Part shown: positions 26,903-63,681 of the stretch, piece after piece | How positions within the stretch are numbered: position 1 is the stretch's first letter | Layout of the letters: each line of letters begins with the position of its first letter | Assembly (NCBI GenBank): GCA_015233675.1 | Contig: JADFXH010000007.1 | Coordinates: 44,162 to 108,161 of the forward strand | Origin: Candidatus Omnitrophota bacterium | Lineage (GTDB): Bacteria; Omnitrophota; Gorgyraeia; Zapsychrales; Fredricksoniimonadaceae | Direction: 5' to 3' | Length of the DNA: 64,000 nucleotides | Position numbers and translations under genes: made by a program | Notes under the pieces: model-generated | What the model saw: only the letters and a program-made list of their open reading frames with translations | The model's database searches: none | Told to the model about the DNA's origin: nothing

Positions 26903-27051
26903 TTGCCTGCCTCACATACGCATAAATTAAAAGAACTAATTAAATTATAATAACAAATGGTCTATATAAAATATAACACTTTTTTTGGGCAAATGGTATT
27001 ATTTCGTTGTTTATGTCGTTGTTTAGCGGTTTAGCGGGCATGAAAGAATCA

Positions 27052-31497: not shown

Positions 31498-31551
31498 GAA
31501 ACTTACCTCTCGGGATCATTCAAACTAGCTCCCAGATCGTTTTTATGTCTG

Positions 31552-31974: not shown

Positions 31975-32000
31975 AGACTAACTCCGAGGTATATTGCCGG

Positions 32001-33205: not shown

Positions 33206-33223
33206 GGTCTGCCTCCGGTTAAT

Positions 33224-34390: not shown

Positions 34391-34413
34391 CTTTTTTAAT
34401 TCCCCTTCCCATA

Positions 34414-36027: not shown

Positions 36028-36644
36028 GCCTTTTCTCCACCAGGCTTAGGTTTTAAGCCCTTTAGCCTGCGAAGTTTTTCAAGTGTCGAATCGATCCCCT
36101 TGGATTCCTTCTCTTCAACGCCGATATCTTCAAGATTGCTTTGGACCTCTTGGTGAACATAAAGCTTGGAAAGATCAATCGACTCAAATTCGGCTGCTTC
36201 TTTAAGCTCCTGTAGCTTGTACTCGCGGGCAGGGCCGCTGAGACCTTTGAGCTCCTTTAGCATACCTGCAATCTTGTCGGAAAGCTTCTCCGATACAGCA
36301 TCGAGGGAACCTTGAAGGATCGCCCCCATATGCGTCTTAAATTCCTCGAGCGTCATGCCAGCTTGCCCCGCTGCAGGAGATGCTACAAGCGGCGCCGGCG
36401 GGACCGATAACGGGACAGCAGGGACCGGCGGCTCTGGTAGCACAGTTCTGGGCTCCTGTATCCTATTTTTCACCCGGGCCGTCACCACATCCATAGAACC
36501 CACAAATTCACCCAGCAGTAATTCCATCTCCATGAGCTCATCATTAAGCTCCTTACGTGACTGCTGAGTGGCATTGATCCTTTGAAATAATCTTGGGACC
36601 AAAACCTCGGGATCATCTATGGTATTTGTATCTTCAGGGCTCAT
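36024..36644 (-). CDS. hypothetical protein with central proline-rich linker (cluster-specific)
   Basis: 206 aa with LPEPPVPAVPLSVPPAPLVASPAAG between two helical segments. It has 4-nt overlaps at both ends, with the actin-like gene upstream and the HPt gene downstream. Confidence 0.5.
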   Translation of the reverse strand: MSPEDTNTIDDPEVLVPRLFQRINATQQSRKELNDELMEMELLLGEFVGSMDVVTARVKNRIQEPRTVLPEPPVPAVPLSVPPAPLVASPAAGQAGMTLEEFKTHMGAILQGSLDAVSEKLSDKIAGMLKELKGLSGPAREYKLQELKEAAEFESIDLSKLYVHQEVQSNLEDIGVEEKESKGIDSTLEKLRRLKGLKPKPGGEKA

Positions 36645-38032: not shown

Positions 38033-38090
38033 TTACTTGCCTCTTTCTTTCCGGCTTCCAAAACTTTTCTCATATCTTCTTTCTATAAAA

Positions 38091-38122
38091 GATTGCTTCG
38101 TCGCTTCGCTCCTCGCAATGAC
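38091..38122. repeat. GTCAT-type palindromic-unit repeat, single arm
   Basis: GATTGCTTCGTCGCTTCGCTCCTCGCAATGAC lies in the gap between the two actin-like genes. It belongs to the same family as the units at 46335, 50001, 60165 and 61564. Confidence 0.6.
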
Positions 38123-38133
38123 ACAGGCTCTTC

Positions 38134-39123
38134 CTATTCTACCTCGCTTAAGCCCGCCAGGAGGCATCCTCTTGCGGTCGCGTACAACGGCTCATCGGCA
38201 AGCCTTACAGTATTGATCGGTATGGGGAAAGACAATTTCTTTAATTCTTCCTTAAAGACATCAACAAACCCGCCGATCATTGAGGAGCCTCCGGCACACA
38301 CAATATCAATGGGTTCCGGGAATTGCGGCATCTGTTCGGCTTTCTCAAATTTATTCTTGATATTGACCAGCGTATAATTAATCAGATTGCGATAATAGAT
38401 ACAGACCGCTTCTTCTTCGCGATTGGCGGGCTTGTTAATATTGATCCCTTTTTCCTTGATGGCGGTCGCCCGGTTGACCTTGATACCGAGAACTTGGGCC
38501 ACATTCTTGTCGATCCAGTCACCCGCTCGGCTCGTCGCAAAACTGATGGCAGGGATCGTCTTATAAGCAACACAAATATTAAACATACCGCCGCCGGCAG
38601 AAATACCGATACCGGTAAAATCCTTGTCTCCTAATTCCGCAAACACCACCGCATGGCCCTCATTCATGGGCTTACCGGTATATCCTAAATTCTTAAGCGC
38701 CCCGGCAATTACGCTTGAGTGGTAAACAATATTGAAGTTCGCATCAACAGGGTCAGCGGGAACGGAATAATAACAAAGCTGTCCTTTTTCATCAGGTTTT
38801 CCAAGGACCGCGTCGATCAAAAGCCCAAAAATGGGAACCGCATCCGCTTCACCGGGACTCATGACGCCATCCTGCATAGGCCGGCGCACGGTTTTATTCA
38901 TGATATTAGCAAGCTCAAAAGCAGAATCACCGAGGATATAAACCTTATTACCCATTTCGGCATATTGTACTTTTTGCTTTTTCAGCATGCTCTTGGTAAA
39001 CGAATTCGCTTCAATATCCAAGAACGTATGGCGCATCAGCTTCAACTTGATCTTGCCGTCTGCTCCCTGTTCAGAGCCAACCAGGTTCATTGTTCCGACG
39101 TCTAATCCCTTAACTTTTCCCAT
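38134..39123 (-). CDS. actin-like ATPase (MamK/Mad28/MreB superfamily)
   Basis: The start was moved to the ATG at 39121-39123 (AGGAG 8 nt upstream). Motifs are VKGLDVGTMNLV, RRPMQDGVM, FTGIGISAGGGMFNI and IVCAGGSSMIGGF. The track extension to 39186 covers a hairpin. Confidence 0.7.
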   Translation of the reverse strand: MGKVKGLDVGTMNLVGSEQGADGKIKLKLMRHTFLDIEANSFTKSMLKKQKVQYAEMGNKVYILGDSAFELANIMNKTVRRPMQDGVMSPGEADAVPIFGLLIDAVLGKPDEKGQLCYYSVPADPVDANFNIVYHSSVIAGALKNLGYTGKPMNEGHAVVFAELGDKDFTGIGISAGGGMFNICVAYKTIPAISFATSRAGDWIDKNVAQVLGIKVNRATAIKEKGININKPANREEEAVCIYYRNLINYTLVNIKNKFEKAEQMPQFPEPIDIVCAGGSSMIGGFVDVFKEELKKLSFPIPINTVRLADEPLYATARGCLLAGLSEVE

Positions 39124-39158
39124 ACGAAAAACTCCTTTTTTAACGCCCCCACCTAAGC

Positions 39159-39176
39159 GCCTGCCTGCTGGCAGGC
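39159..39176. repeat. intercistronic GC hairpin
   Basis: GCCTGCC-TGCT-GGCAGGC, a 7-bp stem with a 4-nt loop, lies between the coiled-coil gene stop (39211) and the actin-like gene start (39123). Confidence 0.5.
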
Positions 39177-39210
39177 TTCTCCCCATCAGTGAGGAGGAAT
39201 AATAGGATTC

Positions 39211-41269: not shown

Positions 41270-42304
41270 CTACCCCCTTGTTAAGTTTCGTTTAAATTTT
41301 GTCTGATTCTCTCGCCACCAGAACCTCCAAGACTCAATAGCGTCTTCCTTATCCCTTTTCGTGGACTTGGCTTTAAAGCCAAAATCCTCACCCGTTATTT
41401 TCTTTAATGATGCCGCAGCCGTTAACTGGACATCGCTTTCAGGATCTGCCAAAAGCGTAATAAGCCCTGATATAGCTTGTGGCACCTTCAGAGCACCGGA
41501 AATCTGGCTTGCGGCCTTTCTGACACCGGAATCCGGATCATGCAAAGCATTAACAGCATAAATCACGCATTTATCGCCAAAGCTCCAGCAAAGGCAATTT
41601 AAAATCTGCCTGCGCACCTCAGGGTCTTTATCTTTTATGAAAGAAACTAAAATATTAAAGCCTTCATCATCGTGATATTTGGAGATAGCCCGCAGGGCTG
41701 CCAGACGTATGCCTGTATCCTGGTGGTGAATGAATTTCTTGAATACATCTTTAGAAGTGGTTGCCTCTTCGCTGATAAATGCCAAGGCATTTAATAATTC
41801 AATGATCTGCAAAGTGTCTTGCTCGCGGGAAAGCAGATCTTCAAGCATCGCGGTTGCTGTGGCCCCCGAAAGCTTCTTGATCTGGCGCAAGGCCTGCATC
41901 CGTATGGCCCTGCTGGGCGACTGGAGGTCCCTAAAATATATTTCCACCTCGACCTCTTCGGTCTTGTTGGCATATGCCATATCTTTCATTGCGACCATAC
42001 GATTAGCAGGCTTCTTCGGGGCAACAGGCTCTGGAGTTATTCTCTCTAAAACAGCCGGAGGCGCTTCTGCCAGAGGCGATTCTTCCGTAGCTACCAAGGG
42101 AGCTGTTGGGATAATCACCGGCGACGGAGCTTGAGGCTGGACAACAGGAATAGGCATGGACACAGAGGACTTTGGAAAACTCTGACGTGGCATACTCTTG
42201 CCAAATGTAAAAAGATAGTTAAATTCTTTTTCCACGCCTTTGACCGCAGCTCCAAGAAAATGAGCCAAATTGTTCTGACCACCCGACGGAATTTTTGTTT
42301 GCAT
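41270..42304 (-). CDS. HEAT-repeat (PBS-lyase type) protein
   Basis: The C-terminal 200 aa contain repeats SPSRAIRMQALRQI, HQDTGIRLAALRAI, DKDPEVRRQILNCL, DPDSGVRKAASQI and DPESDVQLTAAASL. The N-terminus is proline-rich. Confidence 0.7.
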   Translation of the reverse strand: MQTKIPSGGQNNLAHFLGAAVKGVEKEFNYLFTFGKSMPRQSFPKSSVSMPIPVVQPQAPSPVIIPTAPLVATEESPLAEAPPAVLERITPEPVAPKKPANRMVAMKDMAYANKTEEVEVEIYFRDLQSPSRAIRMQALRQIKKLSGATATAMLEDLLSREQDTLQIIELLNALAFISEEATTSKDVFKKFIHHQDTGIRLAALRAISKYHDDEGFNILVSFIKDKDPEVRRQILNCLCWSFGDKCVIYAVNALHDPDSGVRKAASQISGALKVPQAISGLITLLADPESDVQLTAAASLKKITGEDFGFKAKSTKRDKEDAIESWRFWWRENQTKFKRNLTRG

Positions 42305-42356
42305 AAAATATTACCTGTCAAGTAAAGGTTGCCCCTGAACATTAAATTGCTTTTTT

Positions 42357-42384
42357 ATTATAAAGTCGTGAAAATAAAAAGCAA
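42357..42384 (-). promoter_or_regulatory. candidate internal sigma70-type promoter (TTGCTT-16 nt-TATAAT)
   Basis: On the minus strand, TTGCTT (42379-42384) and TATAAT (42357-42362) are separated by a 16-nt spacer. The site is in an AT-rich 99-nt gap about 50 nt upstream of the ATG at 42304. Confidence 0.3.
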
Positions 42385-42403
42385 GAAATTATAAAAAAAT
42401 AAA

Positions 42404-42589
42404 TCAAATGTCTTTTGACTTTTTTAGCAAGTCTTCCTTCTTCTGTTTGACATAATCAATGAGTCCTGTTAAACGCTCAACTTCCAGCTCAAGGTCCTTG
42501 CTGTGGCCGCCGTATGTAAATACGATCCTGTGGTCCCTGTGCCATTCGTAAAATTGCCTGCCCAGAGCTTGAAAACAGCGTTTATCCAT
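42404..42589 (-). CDS. small hypothetical protein
   Basis: 61 aa counted from the ATG at 42589 (MDKRCFQALGRQFYEWH...). No family was recognised and coding status is uncertain. Confidence 0.25.
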   Translation of the reverse strand: MDKRCFQALGRQFYEWHRDHRIVFTYGGHSKDLELEVERLTGLIDYVKQKKEDLLKKSKDI

Positions 42590-42634
42590 ATGCTTGACAC
42601 TCCATGCGGGCCGACACAAAATCGGCCCCTACAA

Positions 42635-42979
42635 TCAACCAATCAACATTTTTAAAGCCCGGCTTACAGCAGCGGAAGCTTTGCCCGCGCTGTATGCGCC
42701 CACTGCGATAAAATCCCGCGGCTTCACATCTTTAAGATCAGACTTAAACTGACGGCTAACACCCTTGAACATCAAAATTGTTTCATCCGTGATCTTTTTG
42801 CCCTTAAGGCCCTTAAGCTTGCTGTCCTCATCCAGGATAATATCCGCAACGCGCTGGGCGCTTTCTGATACGTTATGACCAATGCCAGCCACGGACTTTT
42901 TGATAATAGCGGCCTTGCGGCCCACATCTTTAGCCTCTATGACCTTTTTAATCTTTTTTTTCTTCGTCGAACTTGGCAT
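42635..42979 (-). CDS. small basic hypothetical protein (cluster-specific)
   Basis: The start was moved to the ATG at 42977-42979 (MPSSTKKKKIKK...), 1 nt after the stop of the upstream 565-aa gene. The track extension overlaps that gene. Confidence 0.45.
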   Translation of the reverse strand: MPSSTKKKKIKKVIEAKDVGRKAAIIKKSVAGIGHNVSESAQRVADIILDEDSKLKGLKGKKITDETILMFKGVSRQFKSDLKDVKPRDFIAVGAYSAGKASAAVSRALKMLIG

Positions 42980-42980
42980 A

Positions 42981-44678
42981 TTATTTCCGTCTTTTATTTT
43001 CCGCTGGCAAAACCGCTTTCTGCCCGAGCTTGTTGCCGGCAGCACTCTCCCTTTGTAAATCACGCAAGAGACGAGGTTTGGTATAACTTTCTTTAGCGAT
43101 CGCCTTCCAAACCCGCGCCTGCCGCTTGCGCTCAGGAAGAGGCGCTGAATAATCATACCCCTTATCTGTCCCGGTTATTGCCATAAGGGCTTCAATAGTT
43201 TCTTTACAAACCTTAATATTAACTGATTCTAGTTTCGGGACTAAAGTCACAAAGGCAAAATGGTTCGCCATAATCCCAAGCTTGCGAATCGCCAAACGAG
43301 CAACTCCTTCATCGCTATCACCGGAAAGACGCGCAATGGCCTCTGCTTCGGGACCACCGGCCCTGTGATCGAGATGGTTGACGATAAAACGTCTGATATG
43401 AGCATCAGGATCCCTGATAGCGGACACGATAACATGCTTTGCTTCCTCGGAGCCGAGCTTAACGAGCCCCATCATCCCCTGCAGCCGAAGCGAAGAATTC
43501 TCATCATTGATAAAGCGACGATAAACATCGACCATGGTCGGATAGTCCAGCGTGCCCAAAAGTGAAATGAGCTTCCTTTGAAAAAAAATATCCGCTTCAC
43601 GGGTGAGTTCATAAAGAAAAGGGACCGCCCTTTTAGGAGCATTACGAAAAAGAGTATGTAAGACCGCGAGCTTATCATCATCCGAAGTGCTCTCATTTCC
43701 CAGTTTGCGTGAGGCGGTCTCCAACAGGCCGTAGTCTCCCTGGTCCTCGAGCTCTTCGTCATTTCCGTTCTCAACGACTTCCTGTTGTTCGGACAAAACT
43801 TCTTCTTGTGTTTCACCAGAAACTTCTTCGGCGAGATCTTCCGGATATTCCGGTAGCGGCACAGGAGGTTCCAACGGCTGGGTGACAGGACGGAAAGATC
43901 CCTGACGGTCAATACGCGCCAGCTCAAGGTCTTTTTCATAGACATCGTTGATATTTTTAAAAAGGACGATGACCTCGTCGATAAGGTCATCCACACGCCT
44001 GGTCGTCTCGTTGACTTCCAGCCTAATCTGCTCAAGGAAAGACTCTTCAGCCTTCCACATGGCAACCTCGGGATTGTCCGCAAAAAATTTCTTTTTATTT
44101 TCCATAATACGTTTGATCTCCTCCCGCTTCTGGGCCATCAAAAAAGTAATCTTTTGGATCTTTTCATCCACAGCGGCCTGATAAGCCGCAGTCCTCTCGC
44201 CAGTAGTGTGCATAAGACCCGCAGAAAGACAATCACTCAAATCCTTCTGGACATCGAGGATCTTATTTTCGGCCACACGCAACGCAACATTAAGCTTAGT
44301 GTATGGCTCAAATTGCCCCCGCCGGGATATCCCGGATGGGCGCTGTTCTTGACTAACAGGCGCTGGCGCAAAAGAAACATCAGCCTCTCCCACACAGTTA
44401 ATCGGCAGGGATTCTGAAACTTTGAATTTTGGCAATGGCTCGGACTTAGCTACCGATAAAGGCTCCCGCTTCTCTTTTCTGTCAGAAATCTTTTCTGCGA
44501 CAACATCCCTGATAAGCCGCTTGGCTACAACCGTTAATTTAGGATTATCCGGTTCAAAATAATAAGCAATAGCCCCTGCCTGAATATTCTCATAAAGCAG
44601 CCTGCCGAAGGTGATGAATAAAGAATCAGCCTGTTTTTCGCATTCCTGAAGAAATTCACGTGTATTTTTTGTTGGCAT
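42981..44678 (-). CDS. coiled-coil plus HEAT-repeat protein
   Basis: 565 aa. Contains a helical N-terminal half, an acidic linker (EEVSGETQEEVLSEQQEVVENGNDEELEDQ), and HEAT units DENSSLRLQGMMGL, DPDAHIRRFIVNHL and DSDEGVARLAIRKL. Its start overlaps the upstream stop in a TAATG arrangement. Confidence 0.65.
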   Translation of the reverse strand: MPTKNTREFLQECEKQADSLFITFGRLLYENIQAGAIAYYFEPDNPKLTVVAKRLIRDVVAEKISDRKEKREPLSVAKSEPLPKFKVSESLPINCVGEADVSFAPAPVSQEQRPSGISRRGQFEPYTKLNVALRVAENKILDVQKDLSDCLSAGLMHTTGERTAAYQAAVDEKIQKITFLMAQKREEIKRIMENKKKFFADNPEVAMWKAEESFLEQIRLEVNETTRRVDDLIDEVIVLFKNINDVYEKDLELARIDRQGSFRPVTQPLEPPVPLPEYPEDLAEEVSGETQEEVLSEQQEVVENGNDEELEDQGDYGLLETASRKLGNESTSDDDKLAVLHTLFRNAPKRAVPFLYELTREADIFFQRKLISLLGTLDYPTMVDVYRRFINDENSSLRLQGMMGLVKLGSEEAKHVIVSAIRDPDAHIRRFIVNHLDHRAGGPEAEAIARLSGDSDEGVARLAIRKLGIMANHFAFVTLVPKLESVNIKVCKETIEALMAITGTDKGYDYSAPLPERKRQARVWKAIAKESYTKPRLLRDLQRESAAGNKLGQKAVLPAENKRRK

Positions 44679-45169
44679 TATACTTCCGCAACATCCTTGG
44701 TGACATTTTCAATTTCTTTTTCAAGATCAAGATTAACCGGCGCTTTTTTTTCGATCTGAGCCTTACTTTTAGTTTTTCTGACAGGACTTTTAGCGTTGGT
44801 CTTCTTACCCACGACTTTCTTTTTATGCGCAACAGGGACTTCAATAACAGCCTCTTTTTTCTGCAGGGTTGTTTTCTTGGATGAGCTCTGGAGGTGTCCT
44901 TCACCGACAGAATCCATCCCAGCCTTAAAAGACGCCCTTATTTCCCGCGTGCTTTTCTCAACGGTATCGGTCACCTGGCCCAATACAACCTCAGCCTTCT
45001 CACCAAAGGATTCACAAATATCCTGAGTTGCCACGACCATGCTTTTCAAAGGCTTCTTTTCTGCTACCTGGCCTAACTCCACAACCTTTTTGCAAAGAAA
45101 CCCCGTCTTGTACGAAAGGGTCTTTAAGAGCCCTATTATTTCATCTTTCTTACCTTTTTCTTTTACCAT
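44678..45169 (-). CDS. Lys-rich hypothetical protein (cluster-specific)
   Basis: 163 aa. It overlaps the upstream gene by 20 nt. No family was recognised. Confidence 0.45.
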   Translation of the reverse strand: MVKEKGKKDEIIGLLKTLSYKTGFLCKKVVELGQVAEKKPLKSMVVATQDICESFGEKAEVVLGQVTDTVEKSTREIRASFKAGMDSVGEGHLQSSSKKTTLQKKEAVIEVPVAHKKKVVGKKTNAKSPVRKTKSKAQIEKKAPVNLDLEKEIENVTKDVAEV

Positions 45170-46271
45170 AATTTTTATTCCTTTTTCTTTCGGGCATGAG
45201 CTTTTCTAATGCCTTCTCAGCCGCTTTTTTAACGTCTTGCTCTTTATCAGAAAGCAAATTCTTGACTACGGTCAGCGCTCCCTCGGGTTTAACGATTGAC
45301 AACATCTCCAGCAAACTTATACGGACATAAGGATTAGTGTCTTCCCAAGCTGTAATTGCCTTCTTAACACCTTCCTTGCCATAATAAATCCCCAAATAGG
45401 TCACGGCAAGCCCGCGGATATGCTCGTCACTGTCACTCAACAGGCCATCGAGAATCTTACGGTTCCTGTCACTCACATGACTGCCGAGCCCCTTGACCGC
45501 CGCTGTCCTGACCTTGGCATCAGCGTCATTCATGCCCAAGTCAAAGAATCCTTCAGCTTCGCCTTGTTTCATCCGTGATACATTCTTGATAACAGCAAGG
45601 CGGACCAGGCTGCTCTCATCCTTCATCGCAAATTCGTAAACCTGGTGCAGGATATCTTTCGGGGTAATATGGGCGATCTGGCCGATAGCGACCTCGCGTT
45701 CACGCTGGGTGCCCATTGAAAGCTGATTGATATTCTTTTCAAAAAGCCTCCTGTCCGCATCACAATTGAAACTGGCCGTCTCCAAAAGCCGGGTTAAAGT
45801 GTCATCCGGCCTGATCCTCTCCTCAACAAACGGAGAGCTCGCTGAACTTTCTTCCTCAACGGCTTTATTAACCTCAGATTCGACAGTACTCGTTTCTTCA
45901 AGCTCAATTTCGTCTTCTACTACGGCCTCTTGCTGGATCTCACCTTCATCTTCCTTTTCATCTTCTACTGCAGATTCCGCTTCAAGCTCATCTTCAACCT
46001 CATCTTCAATCTCATCTTCCTCTTGATAGACGGCTGTGTCATCCTCTGACTCTTCCTCATCTTCATCCTCAAGCTCCTCAATCTTCGTTATCCTTTCATC
46101 CAGATAATCCAAAAGCCTCGTAATCTTTTCAATCTCTTGTTCTTTTGGGCGGTCTTCAGATGCAAAACCAAAACTTATCTCTTTAGATTTATAAAGTTTA
46201 TAAACCGCTTCGCCGAACAAAAAGATCAACTTTCTCTGTTTAGACTTAAGTTCTTGCAGATGTTGATCCAT
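45150..46271 (-). CDS. acidic-domain plus HEAT-repeat protein
   Basis: RBS AGGAGAG lies 7 nt before the ATG. Residues ~65-150 are extremely Glu/Asp-rich (EELEDEDEEESEDD...EDEIEDEVEDELEAES...). The C-terminal HEAT units are DADAKVRTAAVKGL, DSDEHIRGLAVTYL, DTNPYVRISLLEML and DKEQDVKKAAEKAL. Confidence 0.65.
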   Translation of the reverse strand: MDQHLQELKSKQRKLIFLFGEAVYKLYKSKEISFGFASEDRPKEQEIEKITRLLDYLDERITKIEELEDEDEEESEDDTAVYQEEDEIEDEVEDELEAESAVEDEKEDEGEIQQEAVVEDEIELEETSTVESEVNKAVEEESSASSPFVEERIRPDDTLTRLLETASFNCDADRRLFEKNINQLSMGTQREREVAIGQIAHITPKDILHQVYEFAMKDESSLVRLAVIKNVSRMKQGEAEGFFDLGMNDADAKVRTAAVKGLGSHVSDRNRKILDGLLSDSDEHIRGLAVTYLGIYYGKEGVKKAITAWEDTNPYVRISLLEMLSIVKPEGALTVVKNLLSDKEQDVKKAAEKALEKLMPERKRNKNYGKRKR

Positions 46272-58680: not shown

Positions 58681-59862
58681 TTAAAATATCGTTCCCGTTC
58701 CCGGCAATTTTTTCAACATAACATGGCAATTATTGCACTTGCCGCGATATTCATGGGGAGCAACAGCTCCCTTCATGATAGGCGGAGGATTTGGCAATAT
58801 GTCCCCGGCATCTGTCGGAAGCTGTCCGCCGGTCGTCATAATAATATGACAAACCGTGCACGCCTTGTTCCTGCTGCGATGAGGGCTTAAAGCGCCCGGC
58901 GTGATCGGCTGGGCCGCCTCATTTTGCGAAAAACCCATTGTCCTGACCGACGAGAAGGTAAATTCCATCAACTGCCCGCGCCTTGACACCAGCACTTGTG
59001 CTTTGTGCCTGTTCTTCACCCTTCTGGTGGCTTCAGTAAATGCCGCAAGGTCAGGTGTCGCAAAATCGTCCACCGCAACAACCATATCCCCTGCCAATAT
59101 CCCGGATTCAGCAGACTCAAGCGAAATCTCATCAACCAGAAGGCCTTTGGTATCAGGAGGAATTTTATATTCTTTAGACAACTCCGGCGTTGTTGGGATA
59201 AGCTCCAGCCCCAGCCAATGGCCTTCAATAAATTCTTTTTGTGCCGCGCCCTGTTCTTTAGGTGTCGGCAGATTAATTTGAGGCGCATTTACAGAAGGAG
59301 CAATCGCGCCCGCCTCGGCAGTTTCCGCAGGCGAACGGTTCGCGAATGCCGCAGGCAGCATTCCCTGAGGCTGATTAGAAGCAGGAGCCGCAACTGCCAG
59401 CGCACCCATTTTCGGGTCGATATTTAGCATTTTCTTGATCTTATCATGCAAGCCCAATTTATTCTCCATCGTGATATAAAGAGGCTGGCCGTTGCGAAGT
59501 ATGTCCAGAAGAAAGCCCGGTTCATGGCTTACTGTCCTTGCGACTTTAAGAAAATCTGATAAGTTTAATATTTTCTGATTATTGATCGCCTTGATAAGAT
59601 CACCACTACGAACGCCGGCTGAGTAGGCAGGGCCCTCACACCAATTGACCACAACACCTTGTTCATCCTTGGGAATGCCAAATTCCATCCTCATCGCAGG
59701 CGTCACATTCGAAACAGAGATCCCTCCCCATTCCGCATCTCCGGCGCCAATATGCATAAGCGCGGCAATAAAGAAAAGGGCCAAGGCCGCAAGCCCGATA
59801 ATCAGCCAAAGCTGCAACCACCTTTTTTGACGCATTTGTTTAAGTTCAAATTCAATAGCCAT
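58681..59862 (-). CDS. mamP: MamP-like protein: TM anchor, two PDZ domains, two magnetochrome (CxxCH) motifs
   Basis: PDZ cores are GVVVNWCEGPAYSAGVRSGDLIKAINN and GLLVDEISLESAESGILAGDMVVAVDD. The magnetochrome-type motifs are SPHRSRNKACTVCH (CxxCH at 58846-58860) and APHEYRGKCNNCH (58723-58737). Confidence 0.7.
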   Translation of the reverse strand: MAIEFELKQMRQKRWLQLWLIIGLAALALFFIAALMHIGAGDAEWGGISVSNVTPAMRMEFGIPKDEQGVVVNWCEGPAYSAGVRSGDLIKAINNQKILNLSDFLKVARTVSHEPGFLLDILRNGQPLYITMENKLGLHDKIKKMLNIDPKMGALAVAAPASNQPQGMLPAAFANRSPAETAEAGAIAPSVNAPQINLPTPKEQGAAQKEFIEGHWLGLELIPTTPELSKEYKIPPDTKGLLVDEISLESAESGILAGDMVVAVDDFATPDLAAFTEATRRVKNRHKAQVLVSRRGQLMEFTFSSVRTMGFSQNEAAQPITPGALSPHRSRNKACTVCHIIMTTGGQLPTDAGDILPNPPPIMKGAVAPHEYRGKCNNCHVMLKKLPGTGTIF

Positions 59863-59871
59863 AGGCTTGTA

Positions 59872-60135
59872 CTATTTCCCTAACTTTTCAGAGTCGATAT
59901 TAAACCTCTCAATCGCGGTATTGCATTCTTTGCAAACCCACAGATCCCTCTTTGAACCCAGCATATACAAACCGATAAAGAGAAGAGGAATACCTAGCAC
60001 CATGCCAATCCAAAAAAGCGTGGCCAGGATTCCGGCGATGATAAAAAACCCGGCGACCTTACGGTTGTAGCGAGGGCCTGAATACTGCTGCATTTCACCG
60101 TTACAATGTGTGCAAATGATTGGCTTACCTGCCAT
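59872..60135 (-). CDS. small membrane protein: split zinc-ribbon (CxxC ... CxxC) around a 2-TM hairpin
   Basis: 87 aa. CTHCNG is followed by two TM helices (FFIIAGILATLFWIGMVLGIPLLFIGLYML) and then CKECNT. Confidence 0.5.
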   Translation of the reverse strand: MAGKPIICTHCNGEMQQYSGPRYNRKVAGFFIIAGILATLFWIGMVLGIPLLFIGLYMLGSKRDLWVCKECNTAIERFNIDSEKLGK

Positions 60136-60164
60136 GAATAACTCCTTCCTCAGATCGAGGTGAT

Positions 60165-60234
60165 GTCATTCTGAGCCCGAAGGGCGAAGAATCTTAAGGA
60201 GTCTTAAGATCCTTCAGCTTCGCCTCAGGATGAC
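60165..60234. repeat. GTCAT-type palindromic element, two inverted arms (long hairpin)
   Basis: GTCATTCTGAGCCCGAAGGGCGAAGAATCTTAAG ... CTTAAGATCCTTCAGCTTCGCCTCAGGATGAC. The arms are imperfect reverse complements and fill the gap between two genes. Confidence 0.7.
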
Positions 60235-60251
60235 AAATAATTTTGTCCTTT

Positions 60252-61538
60252 TTATTTCCCCCCACCAATAACAATACGCGCAGAATTCGGGTCCTGCTGT
60301 CCTGCAAAATTCTGCTGCGTTTGATTGTTCTGCATCATATTCTGATTATTCTGCGCTCCCATTGAAGATTCCAATATCTGGTGGCAATTGGAACACACGC
60401 CCCGATAAGCATGCGGCAGGGTCGCGTCGCGCGTGATCGGAGGAGCCTGTGTTGTTGGCTGCGTCATAGCGACCTGATTGCCATAATTGCCGTTGCCGTA
60501 ATAGGCATTCTGATTTTGAGCAGGCACCATAGCGGCCTGATTGCCATAATTGCCGTTACCGTAATATCCATTGGGCTGAACATTATATTGAAAATTTTGA
60601 TATTGAGGAGCCATCTGGTTATATTGCGGGGCGGTAGGCTGCATATTATTGGGCTGTTGATAGTAGCCTGGCTGTTGATACATTCCTGCCTGCCCCTGCA
60701 TGGCACCAGCTTGTATTCTTGGAATTGGGCAATATGGGTTGTTCCCCATGCCCTGTCCCTGCATATATTGACCACCCTGACCATAGGCCACTTGTGTATT
60801 CTCAACAACGCCTTGAGGCGCTTGAAAATTCTGATATTGGGGAGCCATCTGATTATATGATTGAGCGCCAGCCTGCATTCTAGGAATCGGGCAGTACGGG
60901 TTATTTCCCATGCCCTGACCCTGCATATATTGACCACCCTGACCAAACGCCACCTGTGTATTGTCAACAACACCCTGAGGTGTTTGCACAGGAACATAGG
61001 CAGGTTGAACTGTGCCATCAACAGGCTGAGGTGATGCTGATATCCTTGCCTGCCTGTAAAGCTTGACGACTTTCTGTGCACGGCCCTGATATCCGCCGAA
61101 TACCCTGATACCGAATTGCATTAAAATGTTATAATCTTGCGGAACGATATTCCCGACAATAACAGCTTCTTCCCCTTTACTGGCAACCAGATAAACAAGC
61201 TGAGTACCGGAGGCCCCGCCTCGATAGGGATTCTTGACGGCTTCAACAAGTTTCCCTGACAAAGGATTGACCACCAGGAAATAACGCGCTTCGTTTAATG
61301 TCGGAGCCACGTTAGATGCCAGGGACTGCCCGTCGGTTGCAATTACAATCATCCCGCAGGCGGGATTGCCCTGCATGGCATTTTTGGCATCTGGTGAAAA
61401 TAAGGCATAAAGGCCAACAATCAGCACCACCAAAATCGCACCAAAAATGAAAAAGGTGTTCAGGTCGGTATTTTTAAACTTCGACATGAATTCCTCAAAG
61501 GATTTTTCAAAACTTTTCCCTTGCGGTTTTTTTACCAT
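60252..61538 (-). CDS. TM anchor + NifX/NifB-C-like (Nitro_FeMo-Co type) domain + Q/N/G/Y-rich repeat region + single magnetochrome motif
   Basis: The ATG at 61538 has GGAGGG 5 nt upstream. The NifX-like region is IVIATDGQSLASNVAPTLNEARYFLVVNP...KNPYRGGASGTQLVYLVASKGEEAVIVGNIVPQDYNILMQFGIRVF. The low-complexity region has 54-aa repeats. The C-terminal LPHAYRGVCSNCH carries CxxCH at 60381-60395. Confidence 0.6.
   Translation of the reverse strand: MVKKPQGKSFEKSFEEFMSKFKNTDLNTFFIFGAILVVLIVGLYALFSPDAKNAMQGNPACGMIVIATDGQSLASNVAPTLNEARYFLVVNPLSGKLVEAVKNPYRGGASGTQLVYLVASKGEEAVIVGNIVPQDYNILMQFGIRVFGGYQGRAQKVVKLYRQARISASPQPVDGTVQPAYVPVQTPQGVVDNTQVAFGQGGQYMQGQGMGNNPYCPIPRMQAGAQSYNQMAPQYQNFQAPQGVVENTQVAYGQGGQYMQGQGMGNNPYCPIPRIQAGAMQGQAGMYQQPGYYQQPNNMQPTAPQYNQMAPQYQNFQYNVQPNGYYGNGNYGNQAAMVPAQNQNAYYGNGNYGNQVAMTQPTTQAPPITRDATLPHAYRGVCSNCHQILESSMGAQNNQNMMQNNQTQQNFAGQQDPNSARIVIGGGK
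60702..60980. repeat. 162-bp (54-aa) tandem coding repeat, ~1.7 copies
   Basis: PQGVVDNTQVAFGQGGQYMQGQGMGNNPYCPIPRMQAGA... is repeated as PQGVVENTQVAYGQGGQYMQGQGMGNNPYCPIPRIQAGA. The DNA copies are near-identical (for example CCCATGCCCTG(A/T)CCCTGCATATATTGACCACCCTGACC). Confidence 0.8.
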
Positions 61539-61563
61539 ATAATCCCTCCATATGCCGCTGATT

Positions 61564-61657
61564 GTCATCCTGAGTGCAACGAAGGATCTTAAGACTCTTA
61601 AGATTCTTCGGCAAATATAACGATTGCCCGGTTTAAGGGCCTTCGCCTCAGAATGAC
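61564..61657. repeat. GTCAT-type palindromic element, two inverted arms with an insert
   Basis: GTCATCCTGAGTGCAACGAAGGATCTTAAG ... GGCCTTCGCCTCAGAATGAC lies in the gap between the PDZ gene stop (61664) and the start at 61538. Confidence 0.65.
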
Positions 61658-61663
61658 GAAAGA

Positions 61664-62299
61664 TTACCTAAAAATCGGCCCATAACGGACCCCTTGACCA
61701 ACAAGAGGCGAACCGAGCTGCCAGCTTCCCTTGTTCGGCCCCGCGAGAGGCCCGTACTGATACGTGAAAGGAATGGTCAAATAAAAAATGTTCCCATCCC
61801 GAAAAATTTCCAACAAGATACCTTCACGGTATTGAACCTTATTGGCCACTTCGATAAACTCGCGGGCAGTCGGGACCGCCTTGCGGCTGATCGAAATAAT
61901 CACATCGCCGGTTTTGACGCCGTACTGCTGCGCCAACTCTTTGCCTTCATCCACAACGAACATCCCTTTGATATTTTTGGGGATCTTAAAATCTTTCCTG
62001 ATAGTCCTTGAGACCGGCGCGATTTCCATGCCGACCCATATCGCACTGTCCCCTCTTTCAATAACCATGCCATTTTGCACAGGTCGAGTTTCCTGTCCTT
62101 CCGGAAAAACTTCTAAAGGAAGGATCTCTAACGATGACAGAAGCCAAAAGAATAAAATAATCGCTGCAATCAAAATCCCTACAAAAAGCACCGGTTGTTT
62201 GGCCCAGTAATCTTTGAGCTTATCAAAAAACTTTTCAAATTTGGATTCGAGAACTGACACTGGTTTTGCTGACACTGGTTTTGCTGGTTTTTTCTTCAT
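61664..62299 (-). CDS. membrane-anchored PDZ-domain protein
   Basis: A Lys-rich N-terminus and a TM (VLFVGILIAAIILFFWLL) are followed by the PDZ core GMFVVDEGKELAQQYGVKTGDVIISISRK. It has a 4-nt overlap with the protease gene. Confidence 0.6.
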   Translation of the reverse strand: MKKKPAKPVSAKPVSVLESKFEKFFDKLKDYWAKQPVLFVGILIAAIILFFWLLSSLEILPLEVFPEGQETRPVQNGMVIERGDSAIWVGMEIAPVSRTIRKDFKIPKNIKGMFVVDEGKELAQQYGVKTGDVIISISRKAVPTAREFIEVANKVQYREGILLEIFRDGNIFYLTIPFTYQYGPLAGPNKGSWQLGSPLVGQGVRYGPIFR

Positions 62300-63681
62300 T
62301 GTAGCCTCACTAGGATCTCATCTTCCCTGCCGTTTCTTAAAATACGCACGTTAACATTCTCGCCGGCCCTGAAATTCTGGACGACTTTCGGAATTTCATC
62401 TTTGTCCGTAATCGTAACACCAGCGACTGAAAGAACCACATCTCCGCGCTGAATACCGGCATCTTCAGCCGGCGAACCATGCATGACCCTGTTGACTAAA
62501 ACACCCTGAGTATCTCTTAACCCGAATTGTTGAGCAATGATGGAATCCATGGGCATGACCTCTAGCCCGAAACGGATCGGAACGGGAGACCTCTTCACGT
62601 TAGGGATATCAGCAGGCAAAGCGGCTAGCATCCCTTTTTGATCGACGGGGAAAGAATAATTCTTGCCGAGATTCCTTGATAAAAAATCTTTGCAGTCATT
62701 GATCGGAATAGCAAAACCTGTACCGCTAAAAACACCTGTCGGCGCGTAGATCGCCGTATTCATCCCGATCACCTCGCCCTTAAGATTGACAAGCGGGCCT
62801 CCGGAGGAACCGCGGTTGATGGCCGTATCGGTCTGAAAAAGATTACCATACTGGACGCCTTCAATCACAATGGACTTGCGTATGCCGCTTATGATGCCGC
62901 TCGTGACCGTCTGTTCAATACCAAAAGGACTTCCTACAGCGACCACATAATCACCGATCTGGCTGAAGGCTGAATCACCTATCGCGGCTTCAGGAAACGG
63001 GCCGTCACCCCTAAGCTTAAGAAGGGCCAGATCCATCTTAGGGTCCTGTGCCACCACATCCGCACGAAAATCACGGGGAGGAGTTCCAAAAATAGTAATA
63101 ACAATATCCGTTGCTTGCGCAATCACATGAAAATTCGTCAGGACAAAACCGCGCTCATCAACGATCATGCCGGCCCCGATATTCTCGAAACCTTTATTTT
63201 CAATGAATTTATCAATGGCACCGCTAAAAGGGGGGACAAACTGCATGTTCTGAGCATCAACAGGTTTTGCTGTAGGCATGCCAACAACGCGCGTGGCATG
63301 CACATCACACACAGAAGGGATAATAGCATTAACAGCGTTTTTTAATGAATCCTGGAAACCGGCATTGACCTGATTGCCGACAAGTTGCATATTGCCATAA
63401 GGGGTGGCCTTGGTAATGGCAGCGAGAGAATAATTCCTGTCAGCGGGAGCTCCATTCATTGCGGCCGGCACAACACCTTTAGGAAAAGACGGTTCACCGG
63501 GGATGGGCAGTTTGAGCTTAGGAGCTTCCACTTCACCTGCCCCCTGCAAGATATCTTCACGCTTCATCACGACCCAGAAGACCGACATGACTGAAAGGGC
63601 AACGACACCGATGATCCATGGGCCTATCGGCTGGTGGCAAAATCCGTCTTCAATTTCTTCCGGTTCTTTATCAAGCGGCAT
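62296..63681 (-). CDS. mamE: membrane-anchored HtrA/trypsin-like serine protease with C-terminal PDZ (MamE-like)
   Basis: A TM (WIIGVVALSVMSVFWVV) is followed by the catalytic triad contexts TNFHVIA, DLALLKL and NRGSSGGPLVN. The PDZ domain is GVLVNRVMHGSPAEDAGIQRGDVVLSVAG. No CxxCH is present in this ORF. Confidence 0.65.
   Translation of the reverse strand: MPLDKEPEEIEDGFCHQPIGPWIIGVVALSVMSVFWVVMKREDILQGAGEVEAPKLKLPIPGEPSFPKGVVPAAMNGAPADRNYSLAAITKATPYGNMQLVGNQVNAGFQDSLKNAVNAIIPSVCDVHATRVVGMPTAKPVDAQNMQFVPPFSGAIDKFIENKGFENIGAGMIVDERGFVLTNFHVIAQATDIVITIFGTPPRDFRADVVAQDPKMDLALLKLRGDGPFPEAAIGDSAFSQIGDYVVAVGSPFGIEQTVTSGIISGIRKSIVIEGVQYGNLFQTDTAINRGSSGGPLVNLKGEVIGMNTAIYAPTGVFSGTGFAIPINDCKDFLSRNLGKNYSFPVDQKGMLAALPADIPNVKRSPVPIRFGLEVMPMDSIIAQQFGLRDTQGVLVNRVMHGSPAEDAGIQRGDVVLSVAGVTITDKDEIPKVVQNFRAGENVNVRILRNGREDEILVRLQ

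What the first reader, a model, noticed from the sequence alone, without database searches (positions are those of the whole stretch)
60252..61538. Chimeric protein: NifX-like cofactor-binding domain, prion-like Q/N/G/Y repeats with conserved Cys, and one magnetochrome haem motif
Seen: after a TM anchor, residues ~70-175 follow the Nitro_FeMo-Co (NifX/NifB-C) pattern (IATDG...ARYFLVV...NPY.GGASG...LVASKGEEAVIVGNI.P....L...GIRVF). Next come ~200 residues of Q/N/G/Y/M/P-rich sequence. This region includes a 54-aa tandem repeat (60702-60980) carrying the invariant NPYCPIPR, and a YYGNGNYGNQ duplication. The C-terminal LPHAYRGVCSNCH carries CxxCH at 60381-60395.

Established: magnetochrome domains are c-type haem modules of MamP/E/T/X that oxidise Fe(II). 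NifX-type domains bind Fe-S or metal clusters.

Inference: combining a metal-cluster-binding fold, a low-complexity (possibly phase-separating or mineral-templating) region and a redox haem in one membrane-anchored protein is not something I can match to a described Mam or Mad protein.
Basis: partly seen in the sequence, partly recalled or inferred. Interest (0 to 1): 0.75.

Follow-up and report, generated by a model that had tools for sequence, protein, structure and literature searches.

The report
Omnitrophota magnetosome NifX-like haem protein
This gene encodes a membrane-anchored magnetosome protein with a NifX-like domain, a long disordered spacer and one magnetochrome haem site; it belongs to a conserved, uncharacterised family of magnetotactic Omnitrophota that rearranges the domains of the known FmpB/MamP-like proteins.

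Summary
The gene (60252-61538, minus strand, 428 aa) passes Pfam's curated cut-offs for Nitro_FeMo-Co and for the magnetochrome domain.

It is not a one-off chimera. About 55 homologues, nearly all from Candidatus Omnitrophica MAGs, share the layout: membrane anchor, NifX-like domain, charge-poor Q/N/G/P/M-rich middle, then 1-2 magnetochromes. In three other magnetosome gene clusters the gene sits in the same place, between MamE plus a PDZ protein and a MamP-like protein.

The claim that no described Mam or Mad protein matches is wrong for the domain combination. FmpB (MamP*, DMR_41100) of Desulfovibrio magneticus RS-1 and the "MamP-like" proteins of other magnetotactic Deltaproteobacteria have magnetochrome x2, PDZ and NifX. 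Their NifX domains are homologous to this one. RS-1 mutations predicted to eliminate that domain give fewer, smaller crystals.

What is new is the arrangement: reversed order, no PDZ, a single haem and a roughly 200-residue disordered spacer with CPxP cysteines. Most homologues carry Cys4 zinc-ribbon modules in the spacer; this copy has none.

The likely role is iron redox and iron handling on the lumenal side of the magnetosome membrane. That role is inferred, not shown. I rate it a new variant of a known kind, of moderate interest.

The parts
60252..61538 (-). Coding sequence, 428 aa plus stop (stop codon 60252-60254). A member of the Omnitrophota family with the layout membrane anchor, NifX-like domain, spacer, magnetochrome.
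   Evidence: The ORF is open. It is 100% identical to the GenBank MAG protein P0001, annotated 'magnetochrome domain-containing protein [Candidatus Omnitrophica bacterium]'. Start codon chosen.
61545..61549 (-). Shine-Dalgarno GGAGG, 6 nt upstream of the ATG at 61536-61538.
   Evidence: Read directly from the sequence.
61458..61538 (-). Cytoplasmic N-terminal segment: 27 aa, 6 K/R, predicted helix. It ends in the family-invariant D-L-N motif just before the membrane helix.
   Evidence: Charge count. D25 and N27 are invariant in the 49-sequence alignment. AlphaFold predicts helix 10-22.
61395..61457 (-). The only hydrophobic segment, a signal-anchor transmembrane helix. Predicted orientation is N-terminus in the cytoplasm and C-terminus outside.
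   Evidence: Kyte-Doolittle 19-residue maximum of 2.84 at residue 39, with no other peak. AlphaFold predicts helix 26-46 in 428-aa numbering. Positive-inside count is 6 K/R on the N-side and 1 on the C-side.
61038..61370 (-). NifX/MTH1175-like alpha/beta domain (Pfam core 61053-61316). It begins with the family-invariant NPACG cysteine.
   Evidence: Pfam 31.2 bits against 26.3. PDB profile hits at E 4e-10. AlphaFold pLDDT 88 and Foldseek TM 0.69-0.83 to TM1816, TM1290, ORP, NafY and NifX. It is the most conserved part of the family, with 72% mean column identity.
60444..61037 (-). Disordered, nearly uncharged Q/N/G/Y/P/M-rich spacer of about 198 aa.
   Evidence: Composition and charge. pLDDT below 50. 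The same compositional bias is seen across the family.
60819..60980 (-). Repeat copy 1 (PQGVVDNTQVAFGQGGQYMQGQGMGNNPYCPIPRMQAGA...). Its NPYCPIPR motif is at 60879-60902.
60657..60818 (-). Repeat copy 2. The conserved core runs to about 60703. Its NPYCPIPR motif is at 60717-60740.
   Evidence: 85% nucleotide identity over 122 nt, with 14 synonymous and 5 non-synonymous codon differences.
60465..60572 (-). Two copies of the YYGNGNYGNQ-encoding 45-mer (60465-60509 and 60528-60572), 91% identical.
   Evidence: repeat family D3.
60369..60443 (-). Single magnetochrome (MCR) domain, PPITRDATLPHAYRGVCSNCHQILE. The CxxCH is at 60381-60395.
   Evidence: Pfam 35.4 bits against 30.4. It aligns to both MCRs of MamP 4jj0. 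P, H, G, C, C and H are invariant in 49 homologues.
60255..60368 (-). Q/N-rich C-terminal tail ending in ARIVIGGGK. It lacks the C-terminal Cys motif (for example GTCILR or GRCVIR) that many family members carry.
61664..62299 (-). Upstream neighbour: a membrane-anchored single-PDZ protein of 211 aa. It is conserved at this position in other Omnitrophota clusters.
   Evidence: Pfam and NCBIfam PDZ hits. 35% identity to the PDZ domains of the local MamP-like protein. Synteny.
62296..63681 (-). MamE-like trypsin plus PDZ protease. It has no magnetochrome.
58681..59862 (-). MamP-like protein with two PDZ domains and two magnetochromes. It is the only other haem protein of the cluster inside the window.
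   Evidence: Pfam. NCBIfam MamP 207.6 bits, below the 300 cut-off. MCR scan of the whole window.
60164..60235 (-). Downstream copy of a palindromic intergenic element that folds into a long hairpin.
   Evidence: RNA fold -37.7 kcal/mol, z-score -6.4.
61565..61657 (-). Upstream copy of the same palindromic element, carrying a 29-nt insertion.
   Evidence: RNA fold -42.6 kcal/mol, z-score -6.1.

Best explanation
The gene encodes a conserved component of the magnetosome gene cluster of magnetotactic Omnitrophota. The protein is held in the magnetosome (or cytoplasmic) membrane by one N-terminal signal-anchor helix, and everything after that helix faces the lumen or periplasm.

In order from the membrane it has:
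- a NifX/MTH1175-type alpha/beta domain. Outside the Omnitrophota family, the best matches to this domain are multidomain magnetosome-type proteins, including those built like FmpA and FmpB (MamP*) of magnetotactic Deltaproteobacteria;
- a disordered, uncharged spacer of about 200 residues with two CPIP cysteine motifs;
- one bis-His c-type haem magnetochrome.

Proposed mechanism:
- The haem exchanges electrons with Fe(II)/Fe(III), or with the magnetochromes of the neighbouring MamP-like protein. This helps set the iron redox balance during early crystal growth.
- The membrane-proximal NifX-like domain holds an iron-containing ligand or a partner protein.
- The flexible spacer lets the haem reach across the lumen.

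Shown here: domain identities, fold, conservation, synteny, and homology to the FmpB NifX domain.

Inferred: the topology (from one TM helix, the positive-inside rule, and the need for c-type haem attachment outside the cytoplasm) and the function (from RS-1 fmpA/fmpB phenotypes and MamP biochemistry).
For: **Domains and fold**
- Both Pfam domains score above their curated cut-offs.
- The NifX-like fold is confirmed by a PDB profile search and by AlphaFold plus Foldseek.
- The MCR aligns to the solved MamP structure.

**Family and conservation**
- 58 hits were found, of which about 55 have the same layout; nearly all are from Omnitrophica MAGs.
- The MCR residues P, H, G, C, C, H and the NifX core are invariant in 49 sequences.

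**Synteny**
- The order MamI, small gene, MamE, PDZ protein, this gene, two small genes, MamP-like is conserved in three further clusters.
- Two of those clusters are followed directly by haem-biosynthesis genes, and one of the two also by a cytochrome-c-assembly gene.

**Link to FmpA/FmpB-type proteins**
- An exhaustive HMMER search with the NifX-core profile ranks two kinds of protein just after the family itself: PDZ-NifX(x2-4) proteins with Cys4 ribbons, some from Desulfamplus MAGs, and MCRx2-PDZ-NifXx2 proteins. Ordinary single-domain NifX-like proteins rank lower.
- hhalign of the profile gives 97.7% probability against Ca. Desulfarcum 'MamP'.
- It gives 95.4% probability (E 1.9e-8) against the 423-aa Solidesulfovibrio magneticus protein with MCRx2, PDZ and NifX, which I take to be FmpB.

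**Experimental background from the literature**
- FmpA and FmpB are enriched on early-stage magnetosomes.
- Mutations predicted to eliminate their NifX-type domains give fewer, smaller or misshapen crystals (PMC12748827, PMC4287615).

**Topology**
- There is one hydrophobic segment, with 6 K/R on the N-side and 1 on the C-side.
Against: - No experiment exists for any member of this family, and the organisms are uncultured.
- The ligand of the NifX-like domain is unknown. The HFG-type histidine common in NifX-like proteins is absent here (TLNEA replaces it; read from the alignment).
- A Sec-exported domain cannot carry a pre-assembled cluster.
- The protein has only one MCR, whereas magnetochromes usually come in tandem (PMC3971196).
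- It has no PDZ domain, so it cannot form a MamP-like PDZ/MCR iron-binding pocket on its own.
- Three family members lack the haem motif entirely (P0036, P0051, P0053), so the haem may be accessory to a core function that is still unknown.
- No dedicated topology predictor was available.
Confidence: 0.6

Rival explanations
1. The low-complexity Q/N/G/Y region is the functional core. It acts as a prion-like, phase-separating or mineral-templating matrix in the magnetosome lumen, and the two folded domains only deliver iron and electrons to it.
For: - The composition is extreme: 82% Q/N/G/M/P/A/Y, 20 Tyr and 3% charged residues.
- The region is predicted to be disordered.
- A similar Q/A/G/P/N/M bias is found in the middle region of every family member.
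- The repeat copies are under purifying selection.
Against: - This is the least conserved part of the family in both length (51-406 aa) and sequence. Overall column identity is 25%, against 72% in the NifX core.
- It has almost no acidic residues. From my own knowledge, characterised magnetite-interacting proteins such as Mms6 rely on acidic residues.
- In most homologues the region mainly carries 1-6 Cys4 ribbon modules, which points to a tether for metal-binding modules.
- Nothing here tests condensation or mineral binding.
Confidence: 0.15
2. The family is a lumenal multi-centre electron wire or iron chaperone. The invariant NPACG cysteine, the CPxP cysteines and the rubredoxin-like Cys4 ribbons would bind Fe or Fe-S centres that connect the NifX-like domain to the haem. 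The window copy, having lost its ribbons, would be a reduced version.
For: - Cys4 modules of the form FxCPxCNWRM...FPxCPNCG are present in most members, and also in FmpA-like PDZ-NifX giants.
- The NPACG cysteine is invariant.
- Members without CPxP motifs usually carry a C-terminal Cys motif instead.
- Omnitrophica clusters group with greigite-type clusters in one published analysis (PMC7449369).
Against: - Cys4 ribbons usually bind zinc.
- No metal assignment is possible from sequence.
- The window protein and at least six relatives have no ribbons at all, so the ribbons are dispensable.
- RS-1 makes magnetite, yet it also has NifX-type domains.
Confidence: 0.15
3. It is simply the MamT or MamP orthologue of this lineage, and the NifX similarity is incidental.
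For: The only NCBIfam hits are MamP and MamT, through the MCR segment. GenBank names the protein 'magnetochrome domain-containing protein'.
Against: - Scores are 20.4 bits against the MamP cut-off of 300, and 19.3 against the MamT cut-off of 200.
- A separate MamP-like gene with two PDZ domains and two MCRs lies about 400 nt downstream, with one small gene between.
- The NifX-like core is the best-conserved part of the protein and folds confidently.
Confidence: 0.05
4. The ribbon-less, repeat-containing middle region is an assembly artefact or a decaying gene in this MAG.
For: - The closest relatives, P0002 and P0003 (69% and 48% best local identity), carry two Cys4 ribbons where the window protein has a duplicated CPIP module.
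- The source is a short-read MAG, and read depth could not be examined.
Against: - The ORF is intact.
- The repeat copies differ at 23 of 123 nucleotides, mostly at synonymous sites.
- Ribbon-less members occur independently in JGI, ENA and Logan assemblies (P0004, P0026, P0028, P0029, P0033, P0052). P0028 was seen on 24 contigs.
Confidence: 0.05

Closest known systems
FmpB (DMR_41100; formerly MamT / MamP*) of Desulfovibrio (Solidesulfovibrio) magneticus RS-1, and the 'MamP-like' proteins of Ca. Desulfarcum epimagneticum, Ca. Magnetomorum HK-1, Ca. Magnetananas and Desulfamplus
   Same: - Encoded in a magnetosome gene cluster.
- Exported or membrane-anchored.
- Combines magnetochrome haem with a Nitro_FeMo-Co (NifX-type) domain.
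- The NifX-type domains are homologous (hhalign 95-98% probability).
- The likely role is in early biomineralisation (PMC12748827).
   Different: - FmpB runs signal peptide, MCR x2, PDZ, NifX. This protein runs membrane anchor, NifX, about 200 aa of disordered spacer, then MCR x1.
- It has no PDZ domain; a separate single-PDZ gene sits immediately upstream.
- Best local identity is low, about 21-27% within the NifX domain.
FmpA (DMR_41090; MamE-Cter) type PDZ-NifX proteins, including the Desulfamplus proteins with PDZ x2, NifX x3 and Cys4 ribbons (P0064, P0065, P0086)
   Same: - They are the best out-of-family matches to the NifX-core profile (E 1e-31 to 1e-18).
- They share the Cys4 ribbon modules found in most members of the Omnitrophota family.
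- FmpA is reported to have a transmembrane domain (PMC12748827).
   Different: They have no magnetochrome, carry multiple NifX copies and PDZ domains, and are much larger (about 940-1500 aa). The window protein has no ribbons.
MamP (solved structure 4jj0) and other magnetochrome proteins (MamE, MamT, MamX)
   Same: The MCR motif P...PHxYRGxCxxCH is conserved residue for residue. Fe(II) oxidation by MamP magnetochromes is established knowledge.
   Different: It has a single MCR instead of a tandem pair, and no PDZ domain to form the MamP iron-binding pocket. NCBIfam MamP and MamT scores are far below their cut-offs.
MTH1175 / TM1290 / TM1816 / PH0822 small NifX-like proteins, the orange protein (ORP, 2wfb), and NifX/NafY
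   Same: Same fold (TM 0.69-0.83) and same sequence family (E down to 4e-10). From my own knowledge, ORP, NifX and NafY bind metal clusters non-covalently.
   Different: Those are soluble, cytoplasmic, single-domain proteins. This domain is predicted to be extracytoplasmic, membrane-tethered and fused to a haem module. It sits in a magnetosome cluster rather than a nif or Mo-related context.

Membership tests
Pfam Nitro_FeMo-Co (PF02579; NifX / NifB-C / MTH1175-like) | Sequence matches the family profile above the curated cut-off | tested here: met
   31.2 bits against a gathering score of 26.3, covering profile positions 3-93 of 94. The family-profile search of the PDB gives E 4e-10 to MTH1175.
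Pfam Nitro_FeMo-Co (PF02579; NifX / NifB-C / MTH1175-like) | Three-layer alpha/beta fold of NifX-like proteins | tested here: met
   AlphaFold pLDDT 88.3, pTM 0.83. Foldseek TM 0.76-0.83 to 1o13, 1rdu, 2wfb and 2yx6; 0.74 to NafY 1p90; 0.69 to NifX 9ian_F.
Pfam Nitro_FeMo-Co (PF02579; NifX / NifB-C / MTH1175-like) | Binds FeMo-co, its precursors or another metal cluster | not testable with these tools
   Needs metal analysis of purified protein.
NifX/NafY proper (nitrogenase cofactor chaperones) | Cytoplasmic protein encoded with nif genes | tested here: not met
   The gene lies in a magnetosome cluster. No nif gene turned up among the roughly 37 window ORFs that I scanned. The domain follows a signal-anchor helix and shares the polypeptide with a c-type haem site.
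Magnetochrome domain (PF18509) | Profile match above the cut-off, with CxxCH and the upstream P-H...G residues | tested here: met
   35.4 bits against 30.4. Aligns to both MCRs of 4jj0. P366, H376, G380, C382, C385 and H386 are invariant in 49 homologues.
Magnetochrome domain (PF18509) | Located outside the cytoplasm, so that haem can be attached covalently | tested here: inconclusive
   Inferred from the single TM helix and the positive-inside rule. No dedicated topology predictor was available and there is no experiment.
Magnetochrome domain (PF18509) | Covalently bound haem c | not testable with these tools
   Needs haem staining or spectroscopy.
MamP (NCBIfam NF040965) | Equivalog score of at least 300 bits; PDZ plus tandem MCR | tested here: not met
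   20.4 bits, through the MCR segment only. No PDZ hit.
MamT (NCBIfam NF040992) | Equivalog score of at least 200 bits; tandem MCR | tested here: not met
   19.3 bits. Single MCR.
FmpB / MamP* class of magnetotactic Deltaproteobacteria | Magnetochrome and NifX-type domain in one exported magnetosome-cluster protein | tested here: met
FmpB / MamP* class of magnetotactic Deltaproteobacteria | NifX-type domain homologous to that of FmpB | tested here: met
   hhalign 95.4% (E 1.9e-8) to the 423-aa S. magneticus protein P0283, and 97.7% to Ca. Desulfarcum MamP. That P0283 is DMR_41100 is inferred from the organism, the 5,248,049-bp contig and the domain positions.
FmpB / MamP* class of magnetotactic Deltaproteobacteria | Architecture MCR x2, PDZ, NifX (N to C) | tested here: not met
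   The order is reversed, there is one MCR and no PDZ. A PDZ domain is encoded by the separate upstream gene.
Prion-like / low-complexity domain | Q/N-rich, charge-poor, disordered segment | tested here: met
   The 190-residue stretch counted (186-375) has Q 21%, N 12%, G 14%, Y 11% and 4 charged residues. pLDDT is below 50.
Prion-like / low-complexity domain | Self-templating aggregation or condensation | not testable with these tools
   Needs an experiment.

The most novel reading that the evidence does not exclude
Deep-branching magnetotactic bacteria may share a lumenal toolkit of modules (NifX-like domain, Cys4 ribbon, CPxP cysteine motif, magnetochrome, PDZ) that is shuffled between lineages. 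Within it, the extracytoplasmic NifX-like domain would be a true carrier of iron or iron-sulfur clusters, handing precursors to the growing crystal. The Omnitrophota family would then be a self-contained 'carrier plus electron wire', and the window protein its minimal natural form (carrier plus one haem). That would be the first cluster-chaperone chemistry known outside the cytoplasm.
Probability: 0.15. Interest if true: 0.75.

Novelty: new variant of a known kind. Interest (0 to 1): 0.4.

Why it matters
NifX-type domains are among the least understood parts of magnetosome proteins in deep-branching magnetotactic bacteria. In RS-1, mutations predicted to eliminate them impair crystal number, size and shape, yet nobody knows what they bind.

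This family shows that the same kind of domain is kept, and is the best-conserved element, in a different phylum and in a different arrangement. That argues the domain has a core role of its own rather than being an accessory to PDZ or magnetochrome.

The window protein is one of the simplest natural versions: one anchor, one NifX-like domain and one haem, with no PDZ and no zinc ribbons. That makes it a convenient construct for asking what the domain binds and whether it communicates with the haem.

The sequence is already in GenBank under a generic name, and the domain combination is published for RS-1. The gain is therefore one of classification and experimental tractability, not a new principle.

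Tried and rejected
- **Tandem Repeats Finder** on 60200-61600 found nothing relevant. The repeat was recovered only with seed-and-extend and codon-level comparison.
- **The single genome-contig scan**, run with an FmpB-like alignment, did not retrieve RS-1. It returned Myxococcota MAGs (Sandaracinaceae, Polyangia) with MCRx2-PDZ-NifXx2 proteins, and Magnetococcales MamP loci. RS-1 FmpB was then found through a protein search seeded with the Ca. Desulfarcum 'MamP'.
- **NCBIfam** gave no family assignment beyond weak MCR-only hits to MamP and MamT.
- **Literature searches** for a name or description of this family in Omnitrophica/Omnitrophota found none in the text I could search. Gene-map figures are not held, so a label in a figure cannot be excluded.
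- **A possible "split FmpB"** (upstream TM-PDZ gene plus this gene). The PDZ is of the MamP/FmpA type but only weakly similar to the FmpB PDZ (E 9e-4). I keep this as a suggestion only.
- **The flanking palindromic element** was searched for in the 11 fetched loci, with no match.
- **The CPxP motifs** resemble Cys-Pro haem-regulatory motifs. This is a recollection, not a test, and it is not used in the verdict.
Full report
**1. What is at the locus**

The ORF 60252..61568 on the minus strand is open. The biologically sensible start is the ATG at 61538 (MVKKPQGK...), which has a GGAGG 6 nt upstream. That protein, P0001, is 100% identical and is annotated [quoted passage not shown]. Residue numbers below follow the 438-aa ORF unless stated.

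Pfam gives two hits above the curated cut-offs:
- Magnetochrome PF18509: 35.4 bits against 30.4, residues 376-400.
- Nitro_FeMo-Co PF02579: 31.2 bits against 26.3, residues 85-172.

There is a single hydrophobic segment at residues 38-58. It has six K/R on the N-terminal side and one on the C-terminal side.

The CxxCH maps exactly to 60381-60395.

**2. The NifX-like domain is real**

- A profile of the domain built from 24 family members hits the solved MTH1175 (E 4e-10), TM1290 (5e-10), TM1816, PH0822 and, more weakly, the orange protein ORP.
- An AlphaFold model of the domain is confident (pLDDT 88, pTM 0.83).
- Foldseek matches that model to TM1816, TM1290, ORP (TM 0.83), PH0822, the NafY core and NifX.
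- This is the best-conserved part of the family, with 72% mean column identity. Invariant residues include NPACG, N-P, K-G-E-E-A and Y-R-x-A.

**3. The haem site is real and conserved**

The segment APPITRDATLPHAYRGVCSNCHQI aligns to both magnetochromes of the solved MamP structure 4jj0. In an alignment of 49 family members, P366, H376, G380, C382, C385 and H386 (428-aa numbering) are invariant. Fifty-two of 55 family members carry one or two CxxCH motifs. Published work states that magnetochromes are usually tandem and rarely single (PMC3971196).

**4. The repeats and the low-complexity region**

- Two copies lie 162 nt apart and share a 122-nt core at 85% identity. About 41 of the 54 residues are conserved.
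- Over 41 codons there are 14 synonymous and 5 non-synonymous codon differences. This is an old duplication under purifying selection, not a collapse or expansion of identical repeats.
- Two shorter duplications were also confirmed: the YYGNGNYGNQ unit (45 nt, 91% identical) and the NQMAPQYQNFQ unit (57 nt, 81% identical).
- Tandem Repeats Finder does not report the array.
- The 190-residue stretch counted (186-375) is Q21 G14 N12 Y11 P10 percent, with four charged residues. AlphaFold predicts it to be disordered.
- Read depth could not be examined.

**5. It is a family, not a chimera**

The protein search returned 58 hits, about 55 of them with the same layout. Nearly all are from Omnitrophica MAGs, one is labelled Planctomycetes, and one is labelled Patescibacteria.

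The middle region varies from 51 to 406 aa. In every member it is Q/A/G/P/N/M-rich and charge-poor.

In most members the middle region carries one to six Cys4 modules of the form FxCPxCNWRM...FPxCPNCG, and up to three single-Cys CPxP motifs. The window protein has two CPIP motifs and no Cys4 module. Six other members from independent assemblies also lack ribbons. Its closest relatives, P0002 and P0003, have two ribbons where the window protein has a duplicated CPIP module.

**6. Conserved neighbourhood**

In three other clusters the gene order is MamI, a small gene, MamE (trypsin plus PDZ), a PDZ protein of about 200 aa, this gene, two small genes, then a MamP-like PDZ/MCR protein. What follows differs:
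- In one cluster, a small 91-aa gene, then MamB, MamM, an unassigned 269-aa gene, MamQ and a PDZ-CitMHS protein.
- In two clusters (L007, L010), haem-biosynthesis genes; L010 also has a cytochrome-c-assembly gene there.

The window has the same order, except that only one small ORF (87 aa) lies between this gene and the MamP-like gene:
- MamE-like 62296-63681
- PDZ protein 61664-62299
- this gene
- an 87-aa Zn-ribbon membrane protein
- MamP-like 58681-59862
- MamB- and MamM-like CDF proteins
- TPR (MamA-like) and LemA (MamQ-like) proteins
- PDZ-CitMHS and TauE proteins
- FeoB and DtxR-FeoA
- HEAT-repeat proteins
- a ParA-like ATPase
- two actin-like proteins

Only this gene in the window has a NifX-like domain. 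Only this gene and the MamP-like neighbour have magnetochromes.

**7. Relation to known proteins**

The literature describes RS-1 FmpB (DMR_41100, earlier called MamT and then MamP*) as having an N-terminal magnetochrome, a PDZ domain and a C-terminal NifX/NifB domain. [quoted passage not shown]

A 2025 study reports the following (PMC12748827):
- FmpA and FmpB both carry the dinitrogenase Fe-Mo domain.
- Both are enriched on early-stage magnetosomes.
- Alleles predicted to eliminate that domain give fewer, smaller or misshapen and mislocalised crystals.

An exhaustive HMMER search with the NifX-core profile found 936 proteins. Directly after the family itself come two kinds of protein:
- PDZ-NifX(x2-4) proteins with Cys4 ribbons, several from Desulfamplus MAGs.
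- MCRx2-PDZ-NifXx2 proteins, which the genome scan places in Myxococcota MAGs.

These identifications rest. Generic single-domain NifX-like proteins rank lower.

A protein named "magnetosome protein MamP" from Ca. Desulfarcum epimagneticum has MCRx2-PDZ-NifX and matches the profile at 97.7% hhalign probability.

A search seeded with that protein returned 93 proteins, all but two of them with precomputed MCR, PDZ and NifX hits. They include "MamP-like" proteins of Ca. Magnetomorum HK-1 and Ca. Magnetananas, whose architecture I confirmed. They also include a 423-aa Solidesulfovibrio magneticus protein on a 5,248,049-bp contig. Its NifX domain at 292-379 lies just after the published frameshift position 270. 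I take this protein to be FmpB. It matches the profile at 95.4% probability, E 1.9e-8.

The domain combination and the homologous domain are therefore known. The arrangement here is different: reversed order, a single MCR, no PDZ and a long disordered spacer. The protein is neither MamP nor MamT by NCBIfam (20 bits against 300, and 19 against 200).

**8. How it probably works**

One N-terminal signal-anchor helix and a c-type haem site on the same side of it imply that the NifX-like domain, the spacer and the haem are all extracytoplasmic, that is, in the magnetosome lumen or periplasm. This is an inference and from the established requirement that c-type haem is attached outside the cytoplasm.

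The most economical reading is that this is the Omnitrophota counterpart of the FmpB class. It would be an early-acting lumenal protein whose haem exchanges electrons with iron or with the neighbouring MamP-like magnetochromes. Its membrane-proximal NifX-like domain would hold an iron-containing ligand or a partner. The spacer is best seen as a flexible tether that carries extra cysteine-based metal sites in most relatives.

None of this has been tested in any member of the family.

**9. Rivals**

- A phase-separating or mineral-templating role for the spacer cannot be excluded. It is weakened by poor conservation, by near-absence of acidic residues, and by the ribbons that occupy the region in relatives.
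- A multi-centre Fe/Fe-S electron wire built from the cysteine modules is possible but speculative. The window protein lacks the ribbons.
- MamT or MamP orthology is contradicted by the scores.
- An assembly artefact is unlikely, given the synonymous divergence of the repeat copies and the independent ribbon-less relatives.

**10. Verdict**

The gene is a member of an uncharacterised but conserved Omnitrophota family, and it represents a new architectural variant of the known FmpB/MamP-like class. Interest is moderate. The main value is that it gives a minimal natural construct for finding out what magnetosome NifX-type domains do.

Noticed in passing
window 60164-60235 and 61565-61657 (minus strand): The target gene is bracketed by two copies of a palindromic intergenic element. 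They share the outer arms GTCATYCTGAGGCGAAG...CTCAGRATGAC and the inner palindrome GAAGRATCTTAAGA. They fold into long hairpins (-37.7 and -42.6 kcal/mol, z about -6). These are the only two copies in the 64-kb window, and none occurs in the 11 related loci fetched. The element looks REP- or MITE-like and may act as an intra-operon mRNA stabiliser or attenuator.
   Followed up: partly
homologues P0002-P0051; also P0064, P0065, P0086: Most family members, and the FmpA-like PDZ-NifX giants of Desulfamplus, carry repeated Cys4 modules (FxCPxCNWRM...FPxCPNCG) that are predicted to be extracytoplasmic. These rubredoxin- or zinc-ribbon-like units appear to be a shared lumenal module of deep-branching magnetotactic bacteria. 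The window protein has lost them.
   Followed up: partly
family alignment: The cysteine in NPACG, just before the first strand of the NifX-like domain, is invariant in this family but absent from FmpB-type domains. Members without CPxP motifs usually end in a C-terminal Cys motif (GTCILR, GRCVIR, RLCPVR). Members with CPxP usually do not. This suggests a partner cysteine for the NPACG residue.
   Followed up: no
L007 9594-13692; L010 8900-13311: In two other Omnitrophota clusters the MamP-like gene is followed directly by haem-biosynthesis genes (glutamyl-tRNA reductase, porphobilinogen deaminase, HemD/CobA, an NAD_binding_7 family protein). L010 also has a cytochrome-c-assembly gene there. 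Haem supply seems to be wired into the magnetosome cluster.
   Followed up: no
window 59872-60135 (minus strand): An 87-aa protein with CxxC, two predicted membrane helices (read by eye) and a second CxxC. It gives only weak, sub-threshold LITAF-like and zinc-ribbon Pfam hits. It sits between the target and the MamP-like gene. Small unannotated genes occupy the same position in related clusters.
   Followed up: no
L001-L003 (Sandaracinaceae, Polyangia and 'Deltaproteobacteria' groundwater MAGs): Proteins with MCRx2-PDZ-NifXx2, an FmpB-like architecture with a doubled NifX domain, occur in Myxococcota MAGs.
   Followed up: no
window 36641-39186 and 41270-46271 (minus strand): Two adjacent actin-like genes hit the Pfam Volactin family strongly (E about 1e-80). 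Three HEAT-repeat proteins and a ParA-like ATPase lie nearby. These are presumably the MamK/Mad28-, Mad23- and Mad29-type chain-organisation genes of this cluster.
   Followed up: no
window 26483-36027 (minus strand): Directly after the cluster lies a block of signalling genes: a 1481-aa CHASE hybrid histidine kinase, four single or hybrid response-regulator proteins, an Hpt protein and a hemerythrin.
   Followed up: no
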